Shown piece after piece: positions 11,637-26,521 of a stretch of DNA of 32,000 nt (position 1 is its first letter; every line of letters begins with the position of its first letter). The notes below the pieces were generated by a model, which had not been told where the DNA came from, did not search any database, and worked only from the letters and a program-made list of their open reading frames with translations. The DNA is from Candidatus Electrothrix yaqonensis. Lineage in GTDB: Bacteria > Desulfobacterota > Desulfobulbia > Desulfobulbales > Desulfobulbaceae. Made by a program: the position numbers and the translations under genes. The stretch is from the NCBI GenBank assembly GCA_047651235.1, contig CP178758.1:2820001-2852000 (forward strand). Reading direction: 5' to 3'.

Positions 11637-14330
11637 ATGAATAAAAAAATCAAATCAGACCAAAGCCCGGCCAAATACGACCTGCCCAAAGCCTATGAAT
11701 TCGAGGAGGTCGAACAACGCTGGTATGAATACTGGCTTGAGCATAAAACCTTCAGTGCAGAAATAGAACAAGGCAGGGACGCCTTTTCCATCGTCATTCC
11801 TCCGCCCAATGTCACCGGCGTGCTGCACATCGGCCATGCCCTGAACAACACCCTCCAGGATCTGCTGACCCGCTACCACCGGATGAAAGGCGATAACACC
11901 CTCTGGGTTCCGGGTACGGATCACGCCGGTATTGCCACCCAGAATGTGGTGGAGCGGCAGCTCGCCACGGAAAAGCAGACCCGCCATGACCTAGGCCGGG
12001 AGAAATTCATTGAGCGGGTCTGGCAGTGGCGGACCGATAAGGGCGGCACTATTATCAACCAGCTCAAGCGGATGGGGGCCTCCTGCGACTGGGACCGCGA
12101 ACGTTTCACGATGGATGAAGGCCTGTCCAAGGCGGTGCGCGAAGTTTTTGTCCGTCTGTATGATGAAGGGCTGATCTATAAGGGCGATTACATCGTCAAC
12201 TGGTGCCCGCGCTGCCTGACCGCTCTGGCTGATGATGAGGTAGAGCACGATCCCACCAAGGGCAAGCTCTACCATCTCCGCTACCCCTATGCGGACGGCT
12301 CCGGTTCCGTAGTCATCGCCACCACCCGGCCAGAAACCATGCTCGGCGACACAGCCGTGGCTGTCCATCCGGAAGACGAGCGCTACGCTGGTCTGCAGGA
12401 TATAGGCATCCGCCTGCCTATCGTTGACCGGACCATCCCGGTGGTCCTGGATCATCATGTCCAACGCGATTTCGGGACCGGTGCCCTTAAGGTCACGCCC
12501 TCCCATGACCGGGATGACTACGAGATCGGTCTGCGTCACGACCTGGATCGGGTCAAGATCATGGATGACCACGGCATCATGAACGAGCAGGCCGGGAAAT
12601 ACGCAGGCATGGACCGCTTTGCCTGCCGGGAGCAGATTGTCAAGGATCTGGACGAGCTGAGCTTTCTCAATAAGATTGAAGACTATGACCATGCAGTGGG
12701 CAAGTGCTACCGCTGCGCCACCGTGGTCGAGCCGACCACCTCCAAACAGTGGTTTGTTTCCGTCCGTCCTTTGGCGGACAAGGCTGTGGCTGCCGTGCGC
12801 GAGGGCCGGATCAAGCTCTACCCGGACACTTGGTACAATACCTTCTATGCCTGGATGGACAACATCCGCGACTGGTGCATCTCCCGCCAGATCTGGTGGG
12901 GTCACCGCATCCCGGCCTGGACCTGTCTGGAATGCGGCAAGTTAATCGTTGCTGTCGATGATCCGGGCTTCTGCTCAAGATGCGGTAAAATACATCTTGA
13001 ACAGGAAACCGATGTCCTGGACACCTGGTTTTCCTCGGCCCTGTGGCCCTTCTCCACCCTAGGTTGGCCCGAACAAACTAAGGAGATAGAGACCTTTTAT
13101 CCGACTTCAGTGCTGATTACCAGCTTTGATATCCTCTTTTTCTGGGTGGCCCGGATGATGATGATGGGCCTGCATTTCATGGACGAGGTACCCTTTCACG
13201 ATGTCTATTTGCATGCCTTAGTGCGCGACAAGCACGGCAAAAAGATGTCCAAATCCACCGGCAACGTGATTGATCCGGTGGACACGATCGCCCAGTACGG
13301 CACCGATGCCTTCCGCTTCACCCTGACCGCCTTTGCCGCCCAAGGCCGGGAAATCAAGATGGATGAGGAGCGCATTGACGGCTACCGCCGCTTTATCAAC
13401 AAGCTGTGGAATGCGGCCCGTTTTGCTCAGATGCACATCAAGGACAGTGATCCGGGCATCGTGGCAGTAACAGAGAAGCCTGCCGAACTCGCCCTGCCCC
13501 ACCGTTGGATACTCAGCCGCACCGATGCCACCATCCGCGACGTACGCAAGGCTCTGGACGGCTACGATTTCAACCTGATCGCCTCAGCCATCTACCAGTT
13601 TACCTGGCATGAGTTCTGCGACTGGTATGTGGAGTGGATCAAGGCAGATCTGTTCTCTGATGACGAGACAAAGCGCGAACAGGCCAGAGGCGTGTTGCTC
13701 TCTGTGCTGGAAAACATCTTGAAAATGCTCCATCCTGTCTGCCCCTTTGTCACTGAGGAGATCTGGAGCCAGTTGCCCGGCGAGCGCGGTACCATCATGC
13801 TGGAGGCTTTTCCCAAGGCCAACCCGGCTTGGCAGGATACTGAGGCAGAGCAGTCTATGCAACTGCTCATGGATGTGATCTCTGCTACCCGCACCATCCG
13901 GAGCGAGGCTGATGTCCATCCGAGCGCCAAGGTTCATGCCTCAATCATCTGCGCCGATGCGGGCAAACGTGATCTGCTGCATGACTTTAACGATTCGCTC
14001 TGCTCCATGACCCGCTCTGAATCTCTCTCAATCATGGAGGCTGGCACCGTTCCTGACGATGCCGGGCATATCCTTACTGAAAGCGGGGTCGAGGTTTTTG
14101 TTCCGCTGAAGGACCTGATTGACGTGGAAGCGGAAATGGAGAAGCTAGCCCGCGAACGCAAGAAGATTGAGCAGGAACTCAAGCGGGTGCAGGGTAAGCT
14201 GGGGAATGCAAAATTCCTGAGCAATGCTCCTGATGTGGTGATAGAGAAGGAAAAGGGCAAACAGGCGGAGCTGGAGAATCGGCTGGCTAAGAATGAAGAG
14301 TCGAAGGCACGGCTGATGAAGTTGGGTTAA
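11637..14330 (+). CDS. valS: valine--tRNA ligase
   Basis: HIGH motif (PPNVTGVLHIGHA), KMSKS motif (KKMSKSTGN), editing-domain and anticodon-binding regions, C-terminal coiled coil. 897 aa. Confidence 0.97.
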   Translation: MNKKIKSDQSPAKYDLPKAYEFEEVEQRWYEYWLEHKTFSAEIEQGRDAFSIVIPPPNVTGVLHIGHALNNTLQDLLTRYHRMKGDNTLWVPGTDHAGIATQNVVERQLATEKQTRHDLGREKFIERVWQWRTDKGGTIINQLKRMGASCDWDRERFTMDEGLSKAVREVFVRLYDEGLIYKGDYIVNWCPRCLTALADDEVEHDPTKGKLYHLRYPYADGSGSVVIATTRPETMLGDTAVAVHPEDERYAGLQDIGIRLPIVDRTIPVVLDHHVQRDFGTGALKVTPSHDRDDYEIGLRHDLDRVKIMDDHGIMNEQAGKYAGMDRFACREQIVKDLDELSFLNKIEDYDHAVGKCYRCATVVEPTTSKQWFVSVRPLADKAVAAVREGRIKLYPDTWYNTFYAWMDNIRDWCISRQIWWGHRIPAWTCLECGKLIVAVDDPGFCSRCGKIHLEQETDVLDTWFSSALWPFSTLGWPEQTKEIETFYPTSVLITSFDILFFWVARMMMMGLHFMDEVPFHDVYLHALVRDKHGKKMSKSTGNVIDPVDTIAQYGTDAFRFTLTAFAAQGREIKMDEERIDGYRRFINKLWNAARFAQMHIKDSDPGIVAVTEKPAELALPHRWILSRTDATIRDVRKALDGYDFNLIASAIYQFTWHEFCDWYVEWIKADLFSDDETKREQARGVLLSVLENILKMLHPVCPFVTEEIWSQLPGERGTIMLEAFPKANPAWQDTEAEQSMQLLMDVISATRTIRSEADVHPSAKVHASIICADAGKRDLLHDFNDSLCSMTRSESLSIMEAGTVPDDAGHILTESGVEVFVPLKDLIDVEAEMEKLARERKKIEQELKRVQGKLGNAKFLSNAPDVVIEKEKGKQAELENRLAKNEESKARLMKLG

Positions 14331-14477
14331 ACGAGATTGATTGAACTACCTCCCTGACTTTGTTGTCGGGGAGGTTCCATGTACCTGAGCAACAGAGATT
14401 GAGTGATGATTGAACAGCTTGAAATCAAAAACTTTAGAGGAATTGAGCAGTTTAAAATTGATAATATTGGTCAGGTT
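14258..14477 (+). repeat. direct repeat copy A (valS 3' end + hairpin + 5' end of ATPase gene)
   Basis: Aligns with 16160-16381. It includes a 43-nt identical core GCAACAGAGATTGAGTGATGATTGAACAGCTTGAAATCAAAAA (14389-14431 = 16291-16333). Overall roughly three quarters identical by eye. Confidence 0.9.
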
Positions 14478-15515
14478 AACCTCCTGGTCGGCACAAACAA
14501 CAGTGGAAAAACATCAATTTTAGAGGCTATTCGTTTGCTCAAATCAGAAGGAAATTCATATGATTTCCTTTCAGTCCTGCTTCAACGAGGTGAAAGAATT
14601 CAAAAAGAATCCGATAGACGTCAAATAGACGGGGACTTATGCAGGCTTTTTTATGGTTTTGAACTGAATTCAACTTCCAATTTTTCCATTAAGGGAGGAG
14701 GCGAAAAGCAGAACGAGGGAATATCAGCTTCCGTGAAAGAAATTCCTGTCCAGTCTGAAGTTTTTGAAAAAGACCCTGACTTTTCAGGCCAGTATCAATT
14801 TGATATTCGTTGGAAAAAAGGAAACGAAGAAATTCATCAAGATATTCCTGTCAGCTTGGACGGAGGACTGTCCTATGATTATATAAGAAGGAAACTCCGT
14901 CTTAAGGCAGGGCCAACAAAAGAGAACAATCTTGAATTTGTACCAACCTCTTCATTGTCATCTCATGAAGTTATCGCTTTATTTGACAGAGTAATCCTGA
15001 CACCTGATGAAGAACTTGTACTGGATGCATTAAGAATCATTGAGCCTGATATTACTCGTCTTGCTTCGCTTGGAGGAGGAGCTCGATATTATCCTTTACG
15101 TTCGGGAGACTATGACCGTGGCGGTCTTTTTGTCAAAAGCAGCAAATGGGAAAAAAGAATTCCCATCGGAAGTTTTGGTGACGGTATCTGGCGGTTGCTG
15201 GGACTGATTTTATCCTTGGTCGGAGCAAAAAACGGCACCTTGCTGGTTGATGAAATCGATACCGGCCTACACCACACCGTTATGTCCAAGATGTGGAAGC
15301 TGATTTGCATCACCGCAAAAAAACTCAACGTGCAAGTCTTTGCCACCACCCACAGCAGCGACTGCTGGAAAACGCTGGCCGACAATGCGGTTGAAGATGA
15401 ATTTGCCGACATGCCCATCCGTATCCATCGGATTGATAAAAACAAAATCCGACCGGAAACCTTTACCAATACGGAGATGCACCTTGCCCTAGATCAGGAA
15501 ATAGAGGTTCGCTAG
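14403..15515 (+). CDS. ABC/OLD-type AAA ATPase (AAA_15/AAA_21-like)
   Basis: N-terminal IEQLEIKNFRGI, Walker A GTNNSGKTS, Walker B/D-loop TLLVDEIDTGLH, H-loop FATTHSSD. Start is GTG 14403 or ATG 14406. Confidence 0.85.
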   Translation: MMIEQLEIKNFRGIEQFKIDNIGQVNLLVGTNNSGKTSILEAIRLLKSEGNSYDFLSVLLQRGERIQKESDRRQIDGDLCRLFYGFELNSTSNFSIKGGGEKQNEGISASVKEIPVQSEVFEKDPDFSGQYQFDIRWKKGNEEIHQDIPVSLDGGLSYDYIRRKLRLKAGPTKENNLEFVPTSSLSSHEVIALFDRVILTPDEELVLDALRIIEPDITRLASLGGGARYYPLRSGDYDRGGLFVKSSKWEKRIPIGSFGDGIWRLLGLILSLVGAKNGTLLVDEIDTGLHHTVMSKMWKLICITAKKLNVQVFATTHSSDCWKTLADNAVEDEFADMPIRIHRIDKNKIRPETFTNTEMHLALDQEIEVR

Positions 15516-15516
15516 G

Positions 15517-16200
15517 ATGGCCCGTCAACATGAGAAGGTTCTTTTGGTTGAAGGAGCGGAAGACCAGCGGGTTATTCCTGAGCTTGTTGAGGCAAATGGA
15601 ATTCAGTGGGGCGAAAAAGAAAAAGACTGGATTGTTCAGATTAAATCCCTGAACGGTGTAGAAAAACTTTTGGATAAAGAACGGATCAATGTCCAGCTGA
15701 AGGCGTCAGGATTGAAAATTCTCGGCATCATCCTTGATGCGGACGATGAGCCTGCTGACCGTTGGCAGAGCATACGCAACTGTCTGCTTGAACGATATCC
15801 GGATATTCCGGAAGAATTACCCGCAACCGGCCTGATCCATCCCGGTGAAATCAAAATCGGCGTTTGGATGATGCCGGACAATCAACAACAGGGAATGCTG
15901 GAGACCTTTCTCCAATTTCTCCTACCTGAAGACGACAAAGAGCTTTGGGAGTTTACCGAGCAGAGTTGCAGGCAGGCCACCAACTACGGAGCGTCTTACA
16001 AAGAACCCCATCTGGATAAAGCAAAAATCCATACTTGGCTGGCATGGCAGAATCCTCCGGGACGGCAGCTGCATAACGCGGTCATGGAACGCATTCTCTC
16101 GCCGACTTCGCCGCAGGCAGCCTCTTTCATGCAGTGGTTTCAGAAATTATTTGAGGTTACAGCAACAGGAGATGCCGGAGACCCGGCTGGTGAAAAATGA
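15517..16200 (+). CDS. small Toprim-like protein (DUF3226/DUF4276/DUF4435-type), partner of the ATPase
   Basis: The ATG is 1 nt after the ATPase stop. KVLLVEGAEDQRVIPELV (Toprim Glu) and KILGIILDADDEP (DxD) lie ~60 aa apart. Family assignment is from motif memory, not from a search. Confidence 0.6.
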   Translation: MARQHEKVLLVEGAEDQRVIPELVEANGIQWGEKEKDWIVQIKSLNGVEKLLDKERINVQLKASGLKILGIILDADDEPADRWQSIRNCLLERYPDIPEELPATGLIHPGEIKIGVWMMPDNQQQGMLETFLQFLLPEDDKELWEFTEQSCRQATNYGASYKEPHLDKAKIHTWLAWQNPPGRQLHNAVMERILSPTSPQAASFMQWFQKLFEVTATGDAGDPAGEK

Positions 16201-16381
16201 AGAATCGAAGGCGAGGCTGGGCAAGTTGGGATAAGCGGGGTTGGTTGAAATGCCTCCTTGGCGTTTTGTCGGGAGGCGCTGTGCATCTTTGCAACAGAGA
16301 TTGAGTGATGATTGAACAGCTTGAAATCAAAAATTTCAGAGGATTTGCTGACTACAAGATTGATGATGTAGGGCAGATCGG
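16160..16381 (+). repeat. direct repeat copy B (relic valS 3' end + hairpin + relic ATPase 5' end)
   Basis: In the valS-like frame, 16184-16234 reads RLVKNEESKARLGKLG* versus the valS C-terminus RLAKNEESKARLMKLG*. A conserved hairpin lies at 16252-16277. The ATPase-like start is at 16305/16308. Confidence 0.9.
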
Positions 16382-16462: not shown

Positions 16463-16495
16463 AAAAAATCCTCCCAACAGAAAACTGTCGGGAGG
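16463..16495 (-). terminator. Rho-independent terminator of the dsbC-like gene
   Basis: On the minus strand, the CCTCCC/GGGAGG stem (16470-16475 / 16490-16495) is followed by ATTTTTTGT. Confidence 0.75.
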
Positions 16496-16537
16496 AAAAA
16501 TCTGCAAATATGGAAAACGCCTTTTCAGCCTGTTCTA

Positions 16538-17353
16538 TTATTTCGGCGTCTCCTTCAGCATCTTCACGATCTCATCCGCATCTCTGTAACCGGGGATAAC
16601 CCGGCCATCCGGCATAATCAGGGTCGGAGTCGAACCTATATATAGTTCCTTGCCCAAGGTGATATTTTTCTCCACAGCATCGTTTTCGCATTCCGGTTCC
16701 GGCAGAGACTTTCCAGCAAGACTCTCGTCCAGCAGGCTCAGGGCCTTGGCATTATCTCCGCCGATTTTTGCGCAGACAATAGTCTGTGCCTTCTGTTTGG
16801 CATGAGGATGCATGATCAGGGGGAACATCTTGACCAGAAAGGCAATATCAGGGTGATCCTCAACCACTTTTTTCATAACCGGGTGCAGCTTGCGGCAGAA
16901 TTTGCACTCCGGGTCGTCAAACACGATGATTTGATGTGCAGCATCCGCTTTACCGAGCAGCAACGCATCCTCCAGAGGAATCCGGGAACGGTCCACTGTA
17001 TTCATTTTAACAAAACTGCTCTTGGTTACGTTCTCGTCACTTTCCAGTTTCAGCACGTTGCCGCTGATCAGATAGCTTTTTGAAAAGTCAAGATAGAGCG
17101 GCACTTTCTGGGGTGTTCCCTGTTTATTGCGGACAACGGCTTCCACATCCCAGAGACCGGGCACCTCGCTACGTTTGACTTCGAGCACTTCGCTGACCTT
17201 TCCCGTGAGCAGCTCAGCAACTTCTTCTTTGCTGACTGCATGGCAGTCCCGGCAGTCACCGGCACCGCAGCCTCCTTTCTGAAAGGCTGACGCCGGGGAG
17301 CCTGCAAGCAGGGCGAGCAGGAAAAACGGAAGAATAACTGTATGAAGTTTCAT
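16538..17353 (-). CDS. periplasmic thiol:disulfide interchange protein, DsbC/DsbG-like
   Basis: Signal peptide MKLHTVILPFFLLALLAGSPASA. N-terminal dimerisation-type domain. Thioredoxin fold with active site DDPECKFCRKLHP and the cis-Pro region GSTPTLIMPDG. Confidence 0.85.
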   Translation of the reverse strand: MKLHTVILPFFLLALLAGSPASAFQKGGCGAGDCRDCHAVSKEEVAELLTGKVSEVLEVKRSEVPGLWDVEAVVRNKQGTPQKVPLYLDFSKSYLISGNVLKLESDENVTKSSFVKMNTVDRSRIPLEDALLLGKADAAHQIIVFDDPECKFCRKLHPVMKKVVEDHPDIAFLVKMFPLIMHPHAKQKAQTIVCAKIGGDNAKALSLLDESLAGKSLPEPECENDAVEKNITLGKELYIGSTPTLIMPDGRVIPGYRDADEIVKMLKETPK

Positions 17354-18640: not shown

Positions 18641-19480
18641 ATGGATACAGAAAGCTTTTTGCAGGAAAATCAAGAAAATCTCAACAACATCCTCCGACCC
18701 TTTCAAAAAGAGATCAACCGTGGTCAACGGCTGGCTGATTTTCTCAAACAATGTGTGCGTTGCTTGGGTCGTAATGATTTTCTGCAACTGGAAGAGCTGT
18801 TAAACTCCAAGATAGCGCAGAACGTGGAAGACGAAGATGCCTTGAGCGAGTGCGGGCCTCTTTTCCAGACCCTGCGGGAATATGCCGGGGAACAGGTGGA
18901 GAAATATCGCTTTGCGTTTATCGAAGACCTTTCCCGGCTGGCCGAAGAGGCCGAGTTGCCCATTGAAATTGATTTCCCCCGTTTCACCGTGCTCAAAGGC
19001 ATTGAGGGGGAGATTGATTTCAGTAAGCGTACCACCTCCATCAATAAAAAAGTCCTCAAATCCATTGATCCCCGCCGCATTGTCACTGCAGCCCTACGCT
19101 GGAAAAAGCAGCTCTATGATGGTCCCTTTGATCCCCAGACCTTTGTAGACGGTCTGTACGCAACCTATACAAAGATCAATCAACAGGAGGATGCAGCACC
19201 AGGGCATCCAGTGGGGATTCAGCAGTTTTACCTGGAATATGTGATTTCCCTGCAAAGCAAAGCATTTTTCATCAATATGGATAAGAGCAAATTTCGGGGT
19301 TACAGCCTGGAGCAGTTCGGTGTGGATCTGTGGCGATATTTTGAAGCAGGTATCGGCGGCACCTCTGATGGTATGATGTTGCAGCTGCGGCCAGGGCGCA
19401 ACAATTCCCTGTGGCTGATCGACAGTGATGGTGAACGCCGCCAGATTACCGGAATTTCCTTTCAGGAGAGAGCGATATGA
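18641..19480 (+). CDS. hypothetical protein (gene A of three-gene NTPase operon), no recognisable motif
   Basis: 279-aa ORF with an AG-rich RBS-like stretch (GAAAGAGAG) upstream. Its stop overlaps the next start (ATGA at 19477-19480). Confidence 0.7.
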   Translation: MDTESFLQENQENLNNILRPFQKEINRGQRLADFLKQCVRCLGRNDFLQLEELLNSKIAQNVEDEDALSECGPLFQTLREYAGEQVEKYRFAFIEDLSRLAEEAELPIEIDFPRFTVLKGIEGEIDFSKRTTSINKKVLKSIDPRRIVTAALRWKKQLYDGPFDPQTFVDGLYATYTKINQQEDAAPGHPVGIQQFYLEYVISLQSKAFFINMDKSKFRGYSLEQFGVDLWRYFEAGIGGTSDGMMLQLRPGRNNSLWLIDSDGERRQITGISFQERAI

Positions 19481-20766
19481 AGAGTATGGAAGAGCTGGGG
19501 CAGCTAAAGCCCTTCCAGGCCCGCTCTATTATTGAGGAGTTACGCAAAGGCAGTGTTCCGGCGGAGTATGTCCCGTTTTTCACGGTGGGCCGCGATAATT
19601 GGCTCACCTTTATCGAAGATGACCTGGCCAATTACATTGCCGAAGGCGGGGCCAAAGTCCGCTTTCTCAGTGGCGATTACGGGGACGGTAAGACCCATTT
19701 CATGTCAGTCATCCAACACCTTGCCCTGCAGGAAGGTTTTGGTGTCTCCTTTGTGGTCCTGACCCGGGAAACACCGATTCATAAGTTTGAGGCGGTCTAC
19801 CAAGCCATTACCCAACAGCTTCATGGTCGTTTTGAGGGCATCGGTATCCGCAATCTCTTACGGCAATGGTTGGAGACTCTGGCTGAAAAAGAAGAACCCT
19901 CCCTTGCCCAACTGGCTGATATGGCAGAGACCCTACGCAACCTTCCGGGTATGAACATCAACTTTGCCAACGCCCTCACTGCTCTGGCCCATAATCGCTT
20001 TGTGCCCTTGGAAGAGGGCGAGGAGCAGGAAGAACGAGATACTGCGCAGGAAATTATCTTTCACTGGTTTGAGGGCGGCAAGGTGACCAAGCGCGAGTTG
20101 AAACCATTCGGAATTTTTGAGGTGGTCAACAAATCCAACAGCAAGCAATTGCTCAATTCCCTGAATGTTTTTCTGCGCCATTTTGGACACAAGGGCTTGA
20201 TCCTGTTGCTTGATGAACTGGAAACCGTCATTGCCCAGTCTGCTTCCATGCGCAACGCAGCCTATGAAAATGTGCGCCTGCTCATCGACAACTCCGAACA
20301 TGCGGAATATTTTCATATCTTTTTCTCCATTATCCCTGACGTGCTGCTCTCGGAAAAGGGCTTTAAATCCTATGATGCCCTGTGGAGCCGGGTACGCAGC
20401 ATCGGCCAGAAGAAACAACTCAACTACCGGGGCGTGCTGATTGATCTGCATCGCACCCCCTTGACCAGTCAGGAGCTGATAGAGCTGGGCCGCTGTTTAC
20501 GCCGGATTCACGAGATATCCTATCGCTGGAAAGCTGAGGATTCAGTGCCGGACAAGCTGCTGGAGGATGTCTGCACAAATCAGGAAAAGATGGGCCTGCT
20601 CAGTGAGGTGCGCCTATTCATCAAACAGCTCATCAGCATTCTTGATATGGCGGAACAGGGCGAAACACCGACGGAAGAGCTTGATCTTGAGCAGCACGTC
20701 GTGTCCAGCCAGCAGGAAATGGATCAGGAAAAAGTGGAACAACTGCAACCGAGCTGGGATAAGTAA
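19477..20766 (+). CDS. BrxD/DUF2791-type P-loop NTPase (BREX ATP-binding-domain family), gene B
   Basis: N-terminal ARSIIEELRKGSVPAEYVPFFTVGRD, Walker A GDYGDGKTH, Walker B GLILLLDELE. Family call is from motif memory. Confidence 0.8.
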   Translation: MKSMEELGQLKPFQARSIIEELRKGSVPAEYVPFFTVGRDNWLTFIEDDLANYIAEGGAKVRFLSGDYGDGKTHFMSVIQHLALQEGFGVSFVVLTRETPIHKFEAVYQAITQQLHGRFEGIGIRNLLRQWLETLAEKEEPSLAQLADMAETLRNLPGMNINFANALTALAHNRFVPLEEGEEQEERDTAQEIIFHWFEGGKVTKRELKPFGIFEVVNKSNSKQLLNSLNVFLRHFGHKGLILLLDELETVIAQSASMRNAAYENVRLLIDNSEHAEYFHIFFSIIPDVLLSEKGFKSYDALWSRVRSIGQKKQLNYRGVLIDLHRTPLTSQELIELGRCLRRIHEISYRWKAEDSVPDKLLEDVCTNQEKMGLLSEVRLFIKQLISILDMAEQGETPTEELDLEQHVVSSQQEMDQEKVEQLQPSWDK

Positions 20767-20769
20767 GCC

Positions 20770-22014
20770 ATGAGTAAGGATATGCCAGCCTTTGTCCAGC
20801 TCCTGGAAAAGGCAGATAATTTTACCTTGCGACGGGCCGTGGAACGGTTGCGGGAGGGCCTGTTTGATCCTTTTGGGGTGAGCCTGCTCACTGCCCGTGA
20901 GAGCCAGTTGAACAAGGTTTTTGATCAGGGTGCGCAGGATGTAGCCAAAAACAAGAGCACCCATCTCTGCGTCTGCGGCTCCTATGGTCAGGGAAAATCC
21001 CATAGCCTGACCTATCTGCGCCAACGGGCCCTGCAACAGGGTTTTGCAGTCAGCTCGATCAATCTTGACCCCAGGGAAGTGCCCCTGCACGACTTTCACC
21101 AGGTCTATCGTGCTCTGGTGAACCAGATTGCCTTTCCTGACAGCGATGACTCGCTGGTCAAGGTCTGGGAGCAATGGACCAAAGAAGGGTATAAACAACA
21201 GCTCAAAGGCAAAAAGGCTGATCCCCTCTCAGTTATTCCTGACTGTATGCCCCATGTCTTCAAAGCCGTGCTTACGGCCCTGGCGAACGATAATATGCAG
21301 CTTTCCAGGCGGCAAAAAGGCTTGAAAAAACATGCTGCTTTCCGGCCCCGGTAATTTCCCTGGATTCTGACCAATGCCCTGAACGGAAATTCGCCGCCCG
21401 TGGTTCGTCTCAGACAGGCCCTGAAATATCGGGAGGTTTCCTTTTACAAGGAGCAATCCCTGGTGTGCAAGGGCTGGGAGCCGTATTTTGCTCTGGTCAG
21501 AGGACTGGGACTCATGTTTCAGCAGATGGGTTATAAGGGTTGGGTGCTGCTGTTTGATGAGGCAGAAGCCATTGCCCAGACCCGAATTAATCTGCGCCGC
21601 AAAAGCTACGCCATTTTACAACGCTTTTTTTGCCCGGATACGCCGTTAAACGGCCTTTATCCGGTCTTTTCCTTTACCGATGATTTTTTTTCCACGGTCA
21701 AAGGGGAGGATTACGACCGGGTGGATACTCGCGGTGAAACGGAGCAACCCTATTTCGCGGAAAACTATGCCAGGGCCTGGCGTCGCCTCAATATCCATAA
21801 TCTGCACGATCTGTCCAGTCTGGAGTGGCAAGCTCTGGCTGAAAAGTTGATTTATGTACATGGCAAAGCCTATGCCTGGCAAGCGGAACCGAAGCAACTC
21901 CAAAGACAGCTGGCTGCCACGCTCAAGGAAACAGGTTTGCGTGAGGCCCGTTTGAAGATAAAGGCGTTGGTTAATCAATTGGATTTTGTTCAGCAGGGGG
22001 TTGTGCTGGGGTGA
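20770..22014 (+). pseudogene. second BrxD/DUF2791-type P-loop NTPase (gene C), interrupted by one in-frame TAA at 21352-21354
   Basis: ORFs 20770-21354 and 21400-22014 are in the same frame, and the 45 nt between them are open (FPWILTNALNGNSPP). Walker A GSYGQGKSH lies before the stop and Walker B WVLLFDEAE after it. Paralogous to gene B. Confidence 0.75.
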
Positions 22015-22725: not shown

Positions 22726-25356
22726 ATGCAGCTATCCAGCAGAGCAATTCAGTTTTCTTTGCACAAACCTCGGGTGGTGACCGCCGTTATGGTGCTGTTC
22801 ACCCTGATCATCGGGGCCTTTATTGTCCGGGTGCATGTGGACACCGACCCGGAGAACATGCTGTCCGAGCATGAGGCGGTGCGCGTCTTTCACGATCAGA
22901 CCAAGAAGGAGTTCGGTCTGTATGACGTGGTGGTGCTGGGGGTGGTCAACGAGCATAACCCGGACGGGGTGTTCAATCCGGAAACCCTGCAGCGGGTCTC
23001 CACCCTGAGTAAATTCGCCGCTACCTTGGCTGATCCTGAGGATCCGGCACGCAGGGTGGTCAGCCGGGACATCATTGCCCCGGATAATGTGGATAATATC
23101 CTCCAGGCCGGGCTGGGGCAGGTGCGCTTTGAATGGTTGATGAAAGAGCCGCCCAAGACCAGAGAGGATGCCCTGAAGATCCGTGATGCCGCCCTGAACA
23201 ACCCTCTGCTTAAAGGGACAATGGTTTCGGAAGACGGAAAAGCCCTGGGGATTTATCTGCCCATCACCAAGAAGGATTTCGCCCATTCCTTGGCTGAACA
23301 ACTGAAAGAAAAAATTGCTGAAATCGGCGCGGGTGATGACGAGTTTCACATCACCGGTTTGCCCGTGGCCGAGGATACCTTTGGCAAGGAGATGTTTGTC
23401 CAGATGGCGGTGTCAGCACCACTTGCTATGCTCATGGTTTTCCTGCTCATGCTCTTTTTCTTTCGTAATCTCCAGCTGATCATCGCCCCGATGATCATTG
23501 CCGTGTGTACGGTGATTGTCACTATGGGGATGCTCATCGGAACCGGCCACACCTTGCACATCATGAGTTCCATGATTCCGATTTTCATCATGCCCATTGC
23601 AGTGGTGGATTCGGTCCATATTTTATCGGAATTTTTTGATGCCTATCAGCAGCGCAAAAACCGAAAAGAGACCCTGATTGAGGTCATGAGGCATCTGTTC
23701 AAGCCCATGCTCTTCACCTCACTGACCTCTTCTGCCGGGTTTGCTTCTCTGGCCTTTACCCCGATCCCACCGGTACAGGCATTTGGTATCTTTGTTGCCC
23801 TGGGTATTCTGCTGGCTTGGTTCCTGACCATTGTTTTTGTTCCGGCATACGTGATGATGATGAAGGAAGAAAGCCTGGAGAATTTCGGAGCAGGTGCAAC
23901 AGAGTCCCATGAAAATTCTCCGCTCAACCGTCATCTGCGCTGGATCGGTAAAACCTCCTCCGGCAAGCCCTGGCTGGTCATCGGTGTGAATATTGGCATC
24001 ATGGTTATCGGTGTAATTGGTATCTTCATGATTCAGGTTAATGACAACCCGGTCAAGTGGTTCAAGAAGAGCCATGAAATCCGGGTGGCGGACCGGATAC
24101 TGAACAGTCATTTCGGCGGAACCTACGAAGCCTATCTGGTATTGAAGGGCAATGTGCAGGAGATGAGCGTTGCCCAGGCAGCTACGCAGTTGAAAGAAAA
24201 ACTTCAATCCTCCTTGCAGGAATCTCCGGCAATCCTGACCTCTGCACTGGAGGATATTAAACAGGAAGCTGCGGACAGAAAAACCGTTGCTGGCTTCAAA
24301 GACGCCTTGGCCCAGCTCTGGAATATGGAACTTGACAATGCCCCGGAAGACGATGATACTGTCTATTATTCATGGGAAAAAGCTTTGGACACCCTGCCAG
24401 GAATAGGCAGTCAGAAAGAGGTATTCAAGCGGCCTGATGTGTTGCGCTATATCTCTGATCTGGATGATCATCTGGTCAAATCAGGTGATGTAGGAAAGTC
24501 CAACACGATTGCCGATGTGGTAAAAAAGGTGCATATGGAGCTCTTCGAGGGTGATCCGCAGCGCTTTTCCATCCCGGACTCGGTCAATGCTGTGGCCCAG
24601 ACCCTGATTTCCTTTCAGAACAGTCATAAGCCCGATGACCTTTGGCATTTAGTCACACCGGATTACACCAAGGCCAATATCTGGTTGCAGTTACGCAGCG
24701 GCGACAACAAGGATATGGAGCGGGTGATTGAGGAAGTGGAGCAGTATTTTGCGGCAAATCCGCCACCAGTGGAAATGAGCCATGACTGGGCCGGGCTGAC
24801 CTACATCAACGTGGTCTGGCAGGACAAAATGGTTACCGGAATGCTGGAATCCTTTCTCTCCAGTTTTGCGGTGGTCTTCCTGATGATGGCCTTCCTGTTC
24901 CGCTCACCGACCTGGGGCTTGCTGGCCATGGTGCCGCTGACCTTTACCATAGGCTTTATCTACGGCGTGATCGGCCTGATCGGCAAGGATTACGACATGC
25001 CGGTGGCCGTGCTCTCCTCGCTGGCCCTGGGACTGGCTGTGGACTTTGCTATCCACTTCCTCCAGCGCACCAGAATGACTATGGCGAAGACCGGAGATTG
25101 GGCCGCAGCTATCCGGGATATGTTTGATGATCCTGCTCGGGCCATCCTGCGCAATATCATTGTTATCGCCATCGGCTTTACCCCACTGCTGCTGGCACCG
25201 CTGGTTCCCTATCAGACCGTGGGTATCTTCCTGGCCACGATCATGTTCTACTCCGGCTTTGCCACTTTGTGGATTCTTCCGGCCCTGTTGACGGTGATGA
25301 AGGGTTGGGTGTTTAAGAAGGAATTGAAGGCTTTTGCTGAGAAGGGTGAGGGGTGA
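22726..25356 (+). CDS. MMPL/RND-superfamily exporter (HpnN-like)
   Basis: 876 aa with two 6-TM bundles separated by large periplasmic loops. Typical RND/SSD segments (FFRNLQLIIAPMI..., SMIPIFIMPIAVVDSVHIL and LSSLALGLAVDFAIHFLQR). AGGAGG RBS. Confidence 0.88.
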   Translation: MQLSSRAIQFSLHKPRVVTAVMVLFTLIIGAFIVRVHVDTDPENMLSEHEAVRVFHDQTKKEFGLYDVVVLGVVNEHNPDGVFNPETLQRVSTLSKFAATLADPEDPARRVVSRDIIAPDNVDNILQAGLGQVRFEWLMKEPPKTREDALKIRDAALNNPLLKGTMVSEDGKALGIYLPITKKDFAHSLAEQLKEKIAEIGAGDDEFHITGLPVAEDTFGKEMFVQMAVSAPLAMLMVFLLMLFFFRNLQLIIAPMIIAVCTVIVTMGMLIGTGHTLHIMSSMIPIFIMPIAVVDSVHILSEFFDAYQQRKNRKETLIEVMRHLFKPMLFTSLTSSAGFASLAFTPIPPVQAFGIFVALGILLAWFLTIVFVPAYVMMMKEESLENFGAGATESHENSPLNRHLRWIGKTSSGKPWLVIGVNIGIMVIGVIGIFMIQVNDNPVKWFKKSHEIRVADRILNSHFGGTYEAYLVLKGNVQEMSVAQAATQLKEKLQSSLQESPAILTSALEDIKQEAADRKTVAGFKDALAQLWNMELDNAPEDDDTVYYSWEKALDTLPGIGSQKEVFKRPDVLRYISDLDDHLVKSGDVGKSNTIADVVKKVHMELFEGDPQRFSIPDSVNAVAQTLISFQNSHKPDDLWHLVTPDYTKANIWLQLRSGDNKDMERVIEEVEQYFAANPPPVEMSHDWAGLTYINVVWQDKMVTGMLESFLSSFAVVFLMMAFLFRSPTWGLLAMVPLTFTIGFIYGVIGLIGKDYDMPVAVLSSLALGLAVDFAIHFLQRTRMTMAKTGDWAAAIRDMFDDPARAILRNIIVIAIGFTPLLLAPLVPYQTVGIFLATIMFYSGFATLWILPALLTVMKGWVFKKELKAFAEKGEG

Positions 25357-25363
25357 TACGGTG

Positions 25364-25412
25364 GAGGTTTTCCCGGCAGCATTCCGGTACAGGGTGTTGT
25401 CGGGAGAGCCTC
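25364..25412 (+). other. long-stem hairpin after the exporter gene
   Basis: GAGGTTTTCCCG (25364-25375) pairs with CGGGAGAGCCTC (25401-12), 12 bp including two G-U pairs. It shares the TTGTCGGGAG motif with hairpins at 14348 and 16252. No U tract. Confidence 0.35.
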
Positions 25413-25460
25413 TGATAATAATATCTTCTTACAGAATTTACAAATTGGCCGTTCAGAAAT

Positions 25461-26072
25461 ATGAAAATAGAACAGATAGTCGGAGAAATATGGATTTACC
25501 TGGTTAAAAATATAGATTGGTTATTTAGCGGGACTGGTGTATTTCTTATTGCTTACCTTGGTTCTTTGATTGCTTCAAATTTTCTCAAGCAAAGTCGTCA
25601 AGTAAACGATACAATCAGCTCTTCGGTAGTCCCTGAAGACGTTGACAATCTTTCCAGACTTCTTGTTCAAAATTTTCAAGTATTAAATCGTTATTATTCG
25701 GAAAATCTTTCCCAGGCACGCACAAGTACAATGGCAAGTCTTTCTATTGCGATTCTTGGATTTCTCGTAATCCTCGCTGGCGTACTAATAACTTTTATAG
25801 GAGATCAGGTGGTTTTGGGTACAGTTAGTTCTGGCGCAGGAATTGTATCCGAAGCAGCAGCGTTACTTTTTTTTAAACAAAACAAGTTGTTTCAAGAGCA
25901 AATGCAAAATTCTCTAAAGAAGCTTGTTTCAACCCAATATCTAATGACCTCTGTTGCTCTTGCTCGTGAACTTCCAGAAGAACAACGGTCAAAAGAACTT
26001 GTATCTATAAATGACCACTTGAGGCAATTAATGGACGTTCTTCATCAGGAGGACATTGTTCGTACAAAATAA
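25461..26072 (+). CDS. hypothetical membrane protein in a low-GC islet
   Basis: A 203-aa ORF in clearly AT-richer DNA, where long ORFs are unlikely by chance. Hydrophobic segments WLFSGTGVFLIAYLGSLIA, MASLSIAILGFLVILAGVLITFI and VSSGAGIVSEAAALLFF. No obvious RBS. Confidence 0.6.
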   Translation: MKIEQIVGEIWIYLVKNIDWLFSGTGVFLIAYLGSLIASNFLKQSRQVNDTISSSVVPEDVDNLSRLLVQNFQVLNRYYSENLSQARTSTMASLSIAILGFLVILAGVLITFIGDQVVLGTVSSGAGIVSEAAALLFFKQNKLFQEQMQNSLKKLVSTQYLMTSVALARELPEEQRSKELVSINDHLRQLMDVLHQEDIVRTK

Positions 26073-26264
26073 GCACCTTCTCCATTGACTACTCTGTAAC
26101 CATCTCGGCAGTCATCAATGTTCGTCACGGATTTGAGTTGAATTCTTCAGAACAAAGTTCGGATACGGTCATAGCTTTTTCTGCAAAAAAGGTGTCTTGT
26201 AAGATGCCAGTATTCTTCAAAGGGGTCGCTTACTGTCGCCTTTTGTTCTTCCGGTACGCGACAT

Positions 26265-26490
26265 CTACTGTTTCACTCCGGTCAGAATTACGCCGAGAAT
26301 GTTCACCTTTAACTTTTTGAGGGTGTCCAGAGCATTGTTGACTGCAGAGCGTGAGGTGCTGTTTGATTTGATAATAAATACGGTGCTACAGGGCTATTCT
26401 GTCAGCGAGAACAGAGTGTTCAATTGCTTCACTTCGTGCACTACTCTCCGGACCGCATAAAAAGCCCTTGCCGATAAAGTCGGGCGCTGA
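26265..26490 (-). pseudogene. C-terminal remnant of a BY-kinase/CpsD-type P-loop protein, frameshifted and 5'-truncated
   Basis: The minus strand reads ...STVFIIKSNSTSRSAVNNALDTLKKLKVNILGVILTGVKQ* (stop 26265-26267). In a neighbouring frame, ...DFIGKGFLCGPESSARSEAIEHSVLADRIAL*. Together these resemble the Walker-B-to-C-terminus part of CapB/PtkA-type tyrosine kinases. No Walker A part is left. Confidence 0.45.
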
Positions 26491-26521
26491 ACAGCCGCGT
26501 AGAGCGGATTACGTCTACCAT

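What the first reader, a model, noticed from the sequence alone, without database searches (positions are those of the whole stretch)
14403..16200. ABC-ATPase + short Toprim-like protein cassette (PARIS/AbiL/OLD-like design) inserted directly after valS
Seen: the ATPase stop (15513-15515) and the next ATG (15517) are 1 nt apart. The ATPase has the IKNFRG N-terminus, Walker A GTNNSGKTS, Walker B LLVDEIDTGLH and H-loop TTHSSD, with a long insertion between Walker A and B. The 227-aa partner has VLLVEGAEDQRVIPELV and, ~60 aa later, ILGIILDADDEP. That is the Toprim Glu ... DxD arrangement, followed by a helical half with no motif I recognise. Established: split or fused ABC-ATPase plus Toprim modules are the design of OLD nucleases, Gabija GajA, PARIS AriA/AriB and (as I recall) AbiL. 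Inference: the partner is shorter than AriB/DUF4435 proteins as I remember them. It looks closer to the uncharacterised DUF3226/DUF4276 type, for which I know of no experimentally described function. By eye the cassette is AT-richer than valS, consistent with acquisition.
Basis: partly seen in the sequence, partly recalled or inferred. Interest (0 to 1): 0.75.

Follow-up and report, generated by a model that had tools for sequence, protein, structure and literature searches.

The report
Split OLD-like ATPase–Toprim nuclease pair
Right after the valS gene of a cable bacterium sits a tightly coupled two-gene cassette, an ABC-type ATPase plus a small OLD-like Toprim nuclease (DUF3226), that belongs to a candidate anti-phage system already catalogued as PADLOC PDC-M38 but never tested, so the find is real and well read but not new.

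Summary
Two co-oriented ORFs lie 72 nt after valS: a 369/370-aa ABC ATPase (14403/14406-15515) and a 227-aa partner (15517-16200), with 1 nt between stop and start. All quoted motifs are present. PADLOC models classify the pair as PDC-M38A (1e-83) plus PDC-M38B (7e-70). PDC-M38 is one of 145 untested 'phage defence candidates' from Payne et al. 2024. It is neither PARIS (no AriB/DUF4435) nor AbiL (no AbiLii/RloB). An AlphaFold model of the partner has a Toprim sheet plus a helical domain, and its best PDB match is the C-terminal region of Xanthomonas OLD. E12, D74xD76, E129 and K168 are 83-100% conserved, in the order of the OLD two-metal site. The ATPase precedes DUF3226, with a gap of 0-3 nt in most, in all 92 related loci that have upstream DNA. 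Its central insert is hypervariable and AT-rich. The likely mechanism is a sensor ATPase gating a Toprim nuclease in abortive-infection defence; this is inferred, not shown. An extra finding is a 215-nt direct repeat flanking the cassette, which duplicates the valS 3' end. The same junction occurs in other Electrothrix, so the acquisition is old. Interest is moderate to low.

The parts
11637..14330 (+). valS (valyl-tRNA synthetase), the upstream co-oriented housekeeping gene. It is context and the probable source of transcription for the cassette.
   Evidence: 897-aa ORF. Syntenic valS genes in L004 and L094 carry tRNA-synt_1/Anticodon_1/Val_tRNA-synt_C. No sigma70-like + strand promoter was found between valS and the ATPase.
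14260..14474 (+). Direct repeat copy 1. It covers the last ~70 nt of valS, the 72-nt spacer with its hairpin, and the first ~72 nt of the ATPase gene.
   Evidence: blastn gives 215 nt at 77% identity to 16164-16376. The repeat finder and the alignment agree. An identical 43-nt core lies at 14389-14431 and 16291-16333.
14348..14374 (+). 11-bp GC-rich hairpin between valS and the ATPase, with no U-tract. It is not a canonical intrinsic terminator.
   Evidence: RNA fold of 14328-14405: -24.2 kcal/mol, z = -3.05. It is not listed by the terminator scan.
14403..15515 (+). ABC/SMC-head-type ATPase (PDC-M38A; AAA_15/AAA_21). The likely true start is the ATG at 14406. Walker A is at 14490-14516, signature-like SFGDG at 15171-15185, Walker B at 15240-15272 and the H-loop at 15345-15362.
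   Evidence: Pfam. PADLOC PDC-M38A 1.1e-83, AbiLi 3.3e-55, AriA 7.2e-28. AF2 pLDDT 87, pTM 0.88. Foldseek matches Rad50, PtuA and SMC heads and TsOLD.
14586..15125 (+). Hypervariable, AT-rich, beta-rich insert of the ATPase (about aa 60-240). It is the proposed sensor region.
   Evidence: Column identity is 0.20-0.37 over aa 41-180 and 0.26 at 221-240, against 0.8 in the Walker regions. GC3 is 28%. The DSSP string shows strands, not a coiled coil.
15517..16200 (+). DUF3226 / PDC-M38B: an OLD-like Toprim domain (aa 1-~120) plus a helical domain (aa ~127-212). Key codons are E12 15550-15552, D16 15562-15564, D74 15736-15738, D76 15742-15744, E129 15901-15903 and K168 16018-16020.
   Evidence: Pfam DUF3226 6.5e-72 and OLD-like_TOPRIM 0.015. 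PDC-M38B 6.9e-70. AF2 secondary structure. Foldseek top hit 6njv, the Xcc OLD C-terminal region, E 9.1e-4, prob 1.00. Conservation in 137 family representatives.
16164..16376 (+). Direct repeat copy 2 (relic). It holds a valS 3' end remnant (frame of 16151: ...QEMPETRLVKNEESKARLGKLG*, stop 16232-16234), a degenerate hairpin, and the first ~24 codons of a second ATPase gene (from about 16305), which then decays.
   Evidence: The relic ATPase 5' end resembles other cable-bacterial alleles more closely than the resident gene does.
16469..16496 (-). Hairpin terminator of the convergent dsbC-like gene (16538-17353, -). It is the first strong hairpin after the cassette.
   Evidence: Terminator scan: 12-bp stem plus T-run on the - strand. 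Fold -25.1 kcal/mol, z = -3.55. DsbC_N/Thioredoxin_2 domains.

Best explanation
The cassette is a member of the PDC-M38 family. This is a two-gene 'split OLD-like' system made of an ABC/Rad50-head-type ATPase and a ~215-aa DUF3226 protein, which is a metal-dependent Toprim nuclease with an OLD-type helical domain. Shown: family membership, invariant gene pairing with translational coupling, the Toprim-plus-helical predicted fold, and conservation of a full set of candidate catalytic residues. Inferred: by analogy with PARIS, OLD, AbiL and HEC-01, the ATPase holds the nuclease in an inactive complex and acts as the sensor through its hypervariable beta-rich insert. On sensing a phage or other mobile-element cue, ATP-dependent rearrangement would free or activate the nuclease. 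The nuclease would then cut nucleic acid and stop growth of the infected cell (abortive infection). The substrate is unknown: the OLD-like fold leans towards DNA nicking or degradation, but tRNA/RNA cleavage as in AriB is not excluded. In this genome the pair has no recognisable promoter of its own and is probably read through from valS. It reached the valS 3' flank by an old recombination event that left a duplicated valS 3' end.
For: PADLOC gives PDC-M38A 1.1e-83 and PDC-M38B 6.9e-70, both full length. Pfam gives DUF3226 6.5e-72. PDC-M38 is defined as an untested candidate found by guilt-by-embedding inside BREX, DISARM, type I RM and Hma systems. In all 92 related loci with upstream DNA an ATPase homologue directly precedes DUF3226, with a 0-3 nt gap in most. 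These loci span cyanobacteria, Planctomycetota, cable bacteria and Gammaproteobacteria. The partner model has a b-a-b-a-b-a-b core with pLDDT 86-92, followed by five helices. Its best PDB hit is the OLD C-terminal region 6njv (E 9.1e-4, 234 columns), followed by the retron Eco2 Toprim and DnaG. E12 is 97% conserved, D16 is D/E in 88%, D74 is 100%, D76 is D 83% / N 15%, E129 is 100% and K168 is 96% in 137 representatives. This order and spacing match BpOLD E400, E404, D455xD457, E508 and K562, which are needed for two-metal cleavage (PMC6755086). The ATPase has intact Walker A and B, signature and H-loop motifs and a confident ABC-head fold. The ATPase evolves faster than the nuclease: 55-65% vs 74-81% identity in cable bacteria, 33-46% vs 47-56% in cyanobacteria. 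That variation is concentrated in the insert, as expected for a sensor in an arms race. The family also occurs on small mobilizable Acinetobacter plasmids next to toxin-antitoxin genes. Some neighbours are defence genes, including pAgo, a type IIG RM and Uma2/PDC-S03, and the window has a BrxD/SngB-like ATPase 3.3 kb downstream.
Against: No experiment on this family was found, so the defence role rests on analogy and on the embedding statistic of others. Most immediate upstream neighbours are housekeeping genes such as metH, topA, aaRS genes and groEL, not defence genes. The helical half of the partner model is only moderately confident (pLDDT 50-76) and the TM-score to 6njv is 0.40. The catalytic-residue equivalence with OLD was inferred from order and spacing, not from a superposition. 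D76 is Asn in 15% of family members. The family is absent from 50,697 phage records and has one hit in IMG/VR. That differs from PARIS and OLD, which are often phage- or satellite-borne.
Confidence: 0.6

Rival explanations
1. The pair is a toxin-antitoxin-like addiction or stabilisation module. The nuclease is the toxin and the ATPase its restraint. It persists because its loss is harmful, and it has no dedicated anti-phage role.
For: Pfam describes AAA_21 as 'putative AbiEii toxin, type IV TA system'. The pair occurs on small Acinetobacter plasmids beside BrnT/BrnA. It has tight two-gene coupling. It is embedded next to essential genes, where deletions are costly.
Against: The hypervariable, AT-rich ATPase insert fits a sensor under diversifying selection better than a simple antidote. 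TA-like behaviour and abortive infection are not mutually exclusive, because PARIS works this way. The family was picked up embedded inside known defence systems.
Confidence: 0.15
2. The cassette is itself a mobile, homing-like selfish element. The Toprim nuclease and ATPase promote its own copying into the 3' flank of conserved essential genes, and it brings a replacement 3' end with it.
For: A 215-nt direct repeat flanks the cassette and duplicates the valS 3' end. The same kind of duplication occurs for groEL in Leptolyngbya L054, at 177 nt and 88% identity, with 37 aa at protein level. Flanking repeats were found in 6 of 69 cassettes against 3 of 204 shifted controls. The upstream neighbour is co-oriented in 57 of 71 loci, the downstream one in 38 of 72. 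The cassette sits after valS, metG, topA, metH, groEL and alaS. It carries no recombinase.
Against: A clear protein-level relic was found in only 2-3 of 49 testable loci. The target genes are unrelated in sequence, which argues against a sequence-specific homing nuclease. Classical homing leaves no target duplication. The Electrothrix junction is old and inherited. Homology-facilitated illegitimate recombination, or a single crossover of circularised foreign DNA anchored in a conserved gene, explains the same pattern without any activity of the cassette.
Confidence: 0.08
3. It is a housekeeping DNA-repair pair analogous to RecF (ABC ATPase) and RecR (Toprim protein).
For: The N-terminus of the ATPase matches RecF, RecN and Rad50 models (TIGR00611 8.4e-12; PDB RecF 1e-4). 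Its fold is that of Rad50 and SMC heads. It is adjacent to housekeeping genes.
Against: These hits cover only the ~45-100 N-terminal residues and lie far below the curated cut-offs (44.9 vs 172 bits). The phyletic distribution is patchy and the cassette occupies different loci in related genomes. It has low GC and a hypervariable insert. It is carried on plasmids. It retains a complete nuclease-type acidic/lysine set.
Confidence: 0.04
4. It is a canonical PARIS (AriA/AriB) or AbiL (AbiLi/AbiLii) system.
For: The ATPase hits AbiLi at 3.3e-55 and AriA at 7.2e-28. NCBI labels some homologues of the partner 'DUF4435 domain-containing'.
Against: The partner has no AriB/DUF4435 or AbiLii/RloB hit at E<=1 in Pfam or PADLOC. 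hhalign of the DUF3226 profile against a genuine AbiLii gives probability 0.3%. The dedicated PDC-M38 models score much higher.
Confidence: 0.02

Closest known systems
PADLOC PDC-M38 (phage defence candidate, Payne et al., bioRxiv 10.1101/2024.01.29.577857)
   Same: Both proteins match the PDC-M38A and PDC-M38B models end to end (1.1e-83 and 6.9e-70). Gene order, strand and adjacency are the same.
   Different: Nothing structural differs. This is a new instance in a cable bacterium. PDC-M38 itself is only a prediction with no phenotype or mechanism.
OLD family nucleases, Class 1/2 (P2 Old, Bp/Xcc/Ts OLD; GajA of Gabija)
   Same: An ABC ATPase is combined with a Toprim nuclease. The partner's best PDB match is the Xcc OLD C-terminal region, which is Toprim plus a helical domain. 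Conserved E, D/E, DxD, E and K residues follow the order of the OLD two-metal site. The ATPase N-terminus matches TsOLD.
   Different: The ATPase and nuclease are separate polypeptides. The ATPase is short (369 aa) and has a beta-rich insert. There is no UvrD-like helicase partner. Sequence similarity to OLD Toprim is marginal (E 0.015-0.019).
PARIS (AriA/AriB, 'Class 4 OLD')
   Same: It has a split two-gene design with an AAA_15/21 ATPase followed by a Toprim effector. It offers a plausible model of sequestration and release. The ATPase hits AriA at 7.2e-28.
   Different: The effector is DUF3226 (~215 aa), not DUF4435 (~300 aa), and gives no AriB hit. The ATPase is ~120 aa shorter than the 53-55 kDa AriA (size). 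The family is essentially absent from phages and satellites, whereas PARIS is often virus-encoded.
AbiL (AbiLi/AbiLii) of Lactococcus
   Same: The ATPase is clearly related to AbiLi (3.3e-55, full length). It is a two-gene operon.
   Different: The partner is not AbiLii/RloB. A genuine AbiL pair coexists with a DUF3226 cassette 2 kb away in Electronema locus L003, which shows the two are distinct systems.
HEC-01 (ATPase plus TOPRIM protein, experimentally active; Payne et al. 2024)
   Same: It is a two-gene ABC ATPase plus separate Toprim protein with a conserved OLD-like metal site.
   Different: Only weak ATPase similarity was found (HEC-01A 8.3e-17), and the partner gives no HEC-01B hit.

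Membership tests
PADLOC PDC-M38 | Protein A matches a PDC-M38A model | tested here: met
   PDLC04611 E 1.1e-83, residues 2-370 vs profile 1-383/383.
PADLOC PDC-M38 | Protein B matches a PDC-M38B model | tested here: met
   PDLC04624 E 6.9e-70, residues 5-213 vs profile 12-219/220.
PADLOC PDC-M38 | A and B are adjacent on the same strand | tested here: met
   Stop 15515, start 15517. The same arrangement holds in all 92 related loci with upstream DNA.
PADLOC PDC-M38 | Confers anti-phage protection | not testable with these tools
   The authors list the family as untested. No later test was found.
Pfam DUF3226 (PF11536) | Score above the gathering threshold over the whole model | tested here: met
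   242.1 bits against a 27-bit cut-off, profile positions 2-208 of 208.
Toprim superfamily | Conserved Glu at the end of strand 1 | tested here: met
   E12 follows strand 7-11. It is conserved in 133 of 137 representatives. OLD-like_TOPRIM aligns residues 6-30.
Toprim superfamily | DxD motif after strand 3 | tested here: met
   D74-A-D76 follows strand 68-73. D74 is conserved in 137 of 137; D76 is D in 114 and N in 21.
Toprim superfamily | Four-stranded parallel sheet flanked by helices | tested here: met
Toprim superfamily | Conserved glycine following strand 2 | tested here: inconclusive
   G70 (96%) and G28 are conserved, but neither can be equated with the canonical position without a superposition.
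OLD family nucleases | Toprim followed by the OLD-type helical domain | tested here: met
   6njv (Xcc OLD C-terminal region) is the only PDB hit with E<=1e-3. It aligns over 234 columns with prob 1.00, though TM is only 0.40-0.43.
OLD family nucleases | Two-metal catalytic set (E, E/D at +4, DxD, E in the first helix of the helical domain, Lys in a later helix) | tested here: inconclusive
   E12, D16, D74/D76, E129 and K168 are conserved and lie in the right order and spacing.
OLD family nucleases | ATPase and Toprim on one polypeptide (Classes 1-3) | tested here: not met
   There are two ORFs separated by a stop codon. None of the top 150 family representatives is a fusion; all are 148-274 aa.
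PARIS | Effector AriB = DUF4435 Toprim protein | tested here: not met
   No DUF4435 or AriB hit at E<=1 in Pfam or PADLOC.
PARIS | AriA-type ATPase | tested here: inconclusive
   AriA models hit at 7.2e-28 and 2.4e-26, far below PDC-M38A and AbiLi. The insert is beta-rich rather than a helical bundle.
AbiL | AbiLi ATPase | tested here: met
   PDLC02336 AbiLi 3.3e-55, full length, but this is second to PDC-M38A.
AbiL | AbiLii / RloB-family partner | tested here: not met
   No AbiLii or RloB hit. hhalign of the DUF3226 profile against a verified AbiLii gives probability 0.3%.
Gabija | Fused GajA plus adjacent UvrD-like GajB | tested here: not met
   GajA matches cover only the ATPase N-terminus (1.7e-20, residues 1-52). 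The next gene is a convergent dsbC-like gene.

The most novel reading that the evidence does not exclude
The ATPase-DUF3226 cassette may be more than passive defence cargo. It could be a unit that spreads into the 3' flank of highly conserved essential genes (valS, metG, topA, groEL, metH). It would carry a replacement copy of the target's 3' end and ride on that gene's transcription. At the extreme, its own OLD-like nuclease and ATPase would drive this homing-like insertion. The flanking 215-nt (valS) and 177-nt (groEL) duplications, the strong upstream co-orientation bias and the lack of any recombinase or promoter are compatible with this reading. They do not prove it.
Probability: 0.1. Interest if true: 0.75.

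Novelty: new member of a known kind. Interest (0 to 1): 0.35.

Why it matters
If the inferred mechanism holds, DUF3226 pairs would be a fifth, minimal branch of the OLD, Gabija, retron-Eco8 and PARIS group of ATPase-Toprim immune systems. The family is large: at least 2,280 clusters at 50% identity and at least 593 species-level genomes. It is concentrated in cyanobacteria, Planctomycetota and cable bacteria, where almost no defence system has been tested. The pair is small (about 1.8 kb). It has a clear set of predicted catalytic residues and a hypervariable sensor insert. That makes it an easy target for cloning, mutagenesis and structure work. For this scan, the practical result is that the finding is genuine and correctly interpreted, but PADLOC already catalogues it. 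Its value is as a candidate for validation, not as a discovery of a new kind.

Tried and rejected
Several searches and ideas led nowhere.
- Sequence searches of the partner against PDB gave nothing significant, either as a single sequence or as a profile. The best was the A. aeolicus RNase M5-like Toprim 1t6t at E 0.26.
- NCBIfam has no model for the partner.
- Literature searches for 'DUF3226', 'PF11536' and 'PDC-M38' returned no papers. Papers that tested other PDC systems did not include M38.
- BFVD gave no significant viral structural homologue.
- tblastn against 50,697 phage records found nothing.
- I considered that the 335-aa ORF between valS and the cassette in L004 might be a recombinase, because of a weak PADLOC 'putative invertase' hit at 1.8e-6. 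Pfam finds nothing in it, and the corresponding gene in L008 is an unrelated TPR protein, so I dropped the idea.
- I considered recent horizontal acquisition. I rejected it because the same DUF3226-valS-relic junction is shared by four Electrothrix lineages whose proteins are only 59-83% identical.
- I tested whether duplication of the upstream gene's 3' end is general. It is not: only 2-3 of 49 loci show it at protein level.
Full report
OBSERVATION. The window comes from Candidatus Electrothrix sp. YB6, a cable bacterium; the partner protein is 100% identical to an NCBI entry from that MAG.

The ORF map shows three co-oriented genes. valS runs 11637-14330. A 370-aa ORF runs 14403-15515 from GTG; the ATG at 14406 gives the 369-aa form found in databases. 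A 227-aa ORF runs 15517-16200. The first gene's TAG stop and the second gene's ATG are separated by one base.

The cassette is AT-richer than its surroundings. valS is 56.2% GC (GC3 70%), the ATPase 42.3% (GC3 40%, only 28% in its central insert) and the partner 49.6%.

WHAT THE TWO PROTEINS ARE. The first protein is an AAA_15/AAA_21 ABC-type ATPase. Its AlphaFold model is confident (pLDDT 87, pTM 0.88). It matches Rad50 heads, Septu/retron PtuA, SMC heads and Thermus OLD at TM about 0.5 and 12-17% identity. The roughly 120-180 residues between Walker A and the signature motif form a beta-rich insert, not a coiled coil.

The second protein is a full-length member of Pfam DUF3226 (E 6.5e-72), with only a marginal OLD-like_TOPRIM match (0.015). 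It has no NCBIfam model and no solved sequence homologue.

With a 38-sequence alignment, its AlphaFold model has a well-predicted b-a-b-a-b-a-b core (residues 1-120, pLDDT 86-92). A less confident five-helix domain follows. Foldseek against the PDB gives one hit at E<=1e-3. That hit is the C-terminal Toprim-plus-helical region of Xanthomonas campestris OLD (6njv, prob 1.00, 234 aligned columns, TM 0.40). The Toprim domain of retron Eco2 and DnaG primase come next.

CATALYTIC RESIDUES. I examined 137 family representatives that are 31-53% identical to the query.
- E12 is conserved in 97%.
- D16 is D or E in 88%.
- D74 is conserved in 100%.
- D76 is D in 83% and N in 15%.
- N122 is conserved in 96%.
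- E129 is conserved in 100%.
- K168 is conserved in 96%.

Schiltz et al. (PMC6755086) showed that Class 2 OLD cleavage needs six elements. These are the Toprim Glu (E400), an acidic residue four positions later (E404), the DxD pair (D455/D457), a Glu in the first helix of the helical domain (E508) and a Lys in a later helix (K562). The DUF3226 residues follow the same order with similar spacing, and E129 lies in the first helix after the last Toprim strand. I could not superpose coordinates, so this equivalence is an inference.

CLASSIFICATION. PADLOC-DB models place the pair in PDC-M38: A at 1.1e-83 and B at 6.9e-70, both end to end. PDC-M38 is one of 145 'phage defence candidates'. Payne et al. 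derived them from genes embedded within BREX, DISARM, type I RM and Hma systems and explicitly left them untested.

The ATPase also matches AbiLi (3.3e-55) and AriA (7.2e-28). The partner matches neither AbiLii/RloB nor AriB/DUF4435. An hhalign of the DUF3226 profile against a verified AbiLii from Electronema shows no relation. The pair is therefore not PARIS, AbiL, Gabija or a fused OLD. It is a catalogued, uncharacterised sister design.

I found no paper naming DUF3226, PF11536 or PDC-M38. Studies that tested other PDC systems did not include it.

FAMILY-WIDE EVIDENCE. The DUF3226 family is large. It has 2,280 50%-identity clusters at E<=1e-3, and the 150 best-scoring are all standalone proteins of 148-274 aa, mostly about 215 aa. 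At least 593 loci occur in species-representative genomes, mostly cyanobacteria, Planctomycetota and cable bacteria.

In all 92 related loci that contain upstream DNA, an ATPase homologue lies immediately upstream on the same strand. The gap is 0-3 nt in most.

The ATPase diverges faster than the nuclease. In cable bacteria the identities are 55-65% vs 74-81%; in cyanobacteria they are 33-46% vs 47-56%. The divergence is concentrated in the insert, where column identity is 0.20-0.37 against about 0.8 around the Walker motifs. This is the pattern expected of a sensor domain.

The family is absent from 50,697 phage genomes and has one hit in IMG/VR. It appears on nine plasmids, among them small mobilizable Acinetobacter plasmids. 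One of these carries it next to BrnT/BrnA.

Defence genes are only occasional neighbours. Among 71 upstream genes there are Uma2/PDC-S03 (8), one pAgo and one type IIG RM. Most upstream genes are housekeeping.

MECHANISM (INFERRED). PARIS, OLD and HEC-01 are ABC-ATPase/Toprim systems with described defence activity. By analogy, I propose that the ATPase binds and restrains the nuclease and senses an infection cue through its variable insert. ATP-driven rearrangement would then activate the DUF3226 two-metal nuclease, which halts the infected cell.

The OLD-like fold leans towards DNA as substrate, but tRNA cleavage as in AriB is not excluded. I give this explanation 0.6 confidence. Family membership is near certain; the biological role is not demonstrated.

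GENOMIC SETTING AND AN EXTRA FINDING. No sigma70-like promoter lies between valS and the ATPase. The spacer holds a strong hairpin without a U-tract, so read-through from valS is likely.

The cassette is flanked by a 215-nt direct repeat of 77% identity, at 14260-14474 and 16164-16376. Copy 2 is a relic. It contains a valS C-terminus (…KNEESKARLGKLG*), a decayed hairpin and the first ~24 codons of another ATPase gene. The partner ORF has lost its own stop codon and runs 13 codons into this relic in another frame.

The same junction occurs in three other Electrothrix lineages whose DUF3226 proteins are only 59-83% identical: P0002, GM3_4/L008 and Rat3/L094. The event is therefore old, not a recent acquisition. 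The low GC is a property of the cassette in all cable-bacterial loci examined.

In cable bacteria the cassette always sits just downstream of, and co-oriented with, a large housekeeping gene.
- After valS: window, L004, L094.
- After metG: L001, L010-12, L095, L096.
- After topA: L003 and three more loci.

Elsewhere it follows metH (seven Pseudanabaena), groEL and alaS. The upstream neighbour is co-oriented in 57 of 71 loci, against 38 of 72 for the downstream neighbour.

An independent case mirrors the window. In Leptolyngbya L054 the last ~115 nt of groEL plus its terminator are duplicated exactly at the DUF3226 stop (177 nt, 88%).

Flanking repeats occur in 6 of 69 cassettes against 3 of 204 shifted control positions. 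Protein-level relics are seen in only 2-3 of 49 loci.

The simplest reading is recombination anchored in a conserved gene. This could be homology-facilitated illegitimate recombination, or a single crossover of a circularised fragment. A self-promoted, homing-like spread is the most novel reading not excluded; I put it at about 0.1.

VERDICT. It is a new member of a known, catalogued but untested kind. Interest is moderate to low (0.35). It is a good validation target with clear mutants to make, plus a small open question about how such cassettes settle behind essential genes.

Noticed in passing
window 14260-14474 and 16164-16376: A 215-nt direct repeat (77% identity, identical 43-nt core at 14389 and 16291) flanks the cassette. 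The downstream copy is a relic of the valS 3' end, a hairpin and the first ~24 codons of a second ATPase gene. The DUF3226 ORF reads 13 codons into it.
   Followed up: yes
L054 4629-4804 and 6635-6802 (Leptolyngbya sp. AN10): Independent parallel case. The last ~115 nt of groEL plus its terminator are duplicated starting exactly at the DUF3226 stop (88% identity; 37 aa at protein level).
   Followed up: partly
L001, L003, L004, L010-L012, L094-L096 and 71 other loci: The cassette lies directly after, and co-oriented with, large conserved housekeeping genes: valS, metG, topA, metH, groEL, alaS. The upstream neighbour is co-oriented in 57 of 71 loci, the downstream one in 38 of 72. The reason is unexplained.
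   Followed up: partly
window 18641-22014 (+): A 279-aa ORF with no family hit overlaps by 4 nt a 429-aa BrxD/SngB-like ATPase (BrxC_BrxD 1.9e-58; PADLOC BrxD 1.5e-44). A second BrxD-like gene follows, split into two ORFs (20770-21354 and 21400-22014), probably a pseudogene. This may be another defence-type module 2.4 kb from the cassette.
   Followed up: partly
window 25461-26072 (+), in a GC trough (0.41-0.45 at 25000-26500): A 203-aa protein carries a CyanoTRADDas_TM domain (5.3e-15), a domain known from cyanobacterial conflict systems, in an AT-rich patch.
   Followed up: no
L003 10712-12618 (Ca. Electronema sp. JM): A genuine AbiL pair (AbiLi 9.8e-77, AbiLii 1.7e-24) lies 2 kb downstream of a topA-linked DUF3226 cassette, separated by rsfS and a phosphoglycerate mutase gene. 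Two different ATPase-Toprim-type pairs are interleaved with housekeeping genes.
   Followed up: partly
window 14586-15125 (ATPase aa 60-240): The ATPase insert has GC3 of only 28%, against 58% in the C-terminal third of the same gene. Some homologues (for example P0279) are near-identical in the C-terminal half but divergent in the insert. This suggests mosaic recombination of the sensor region.
   Followed up: partly
window 2433-4328 (+): A 631-aa protein combines a homocysteine S-methyltransferase domain with an MTHFR domain. It sits next to metK and ahcY, forming a methyl-cycle gene cluster.
   Followed up: no
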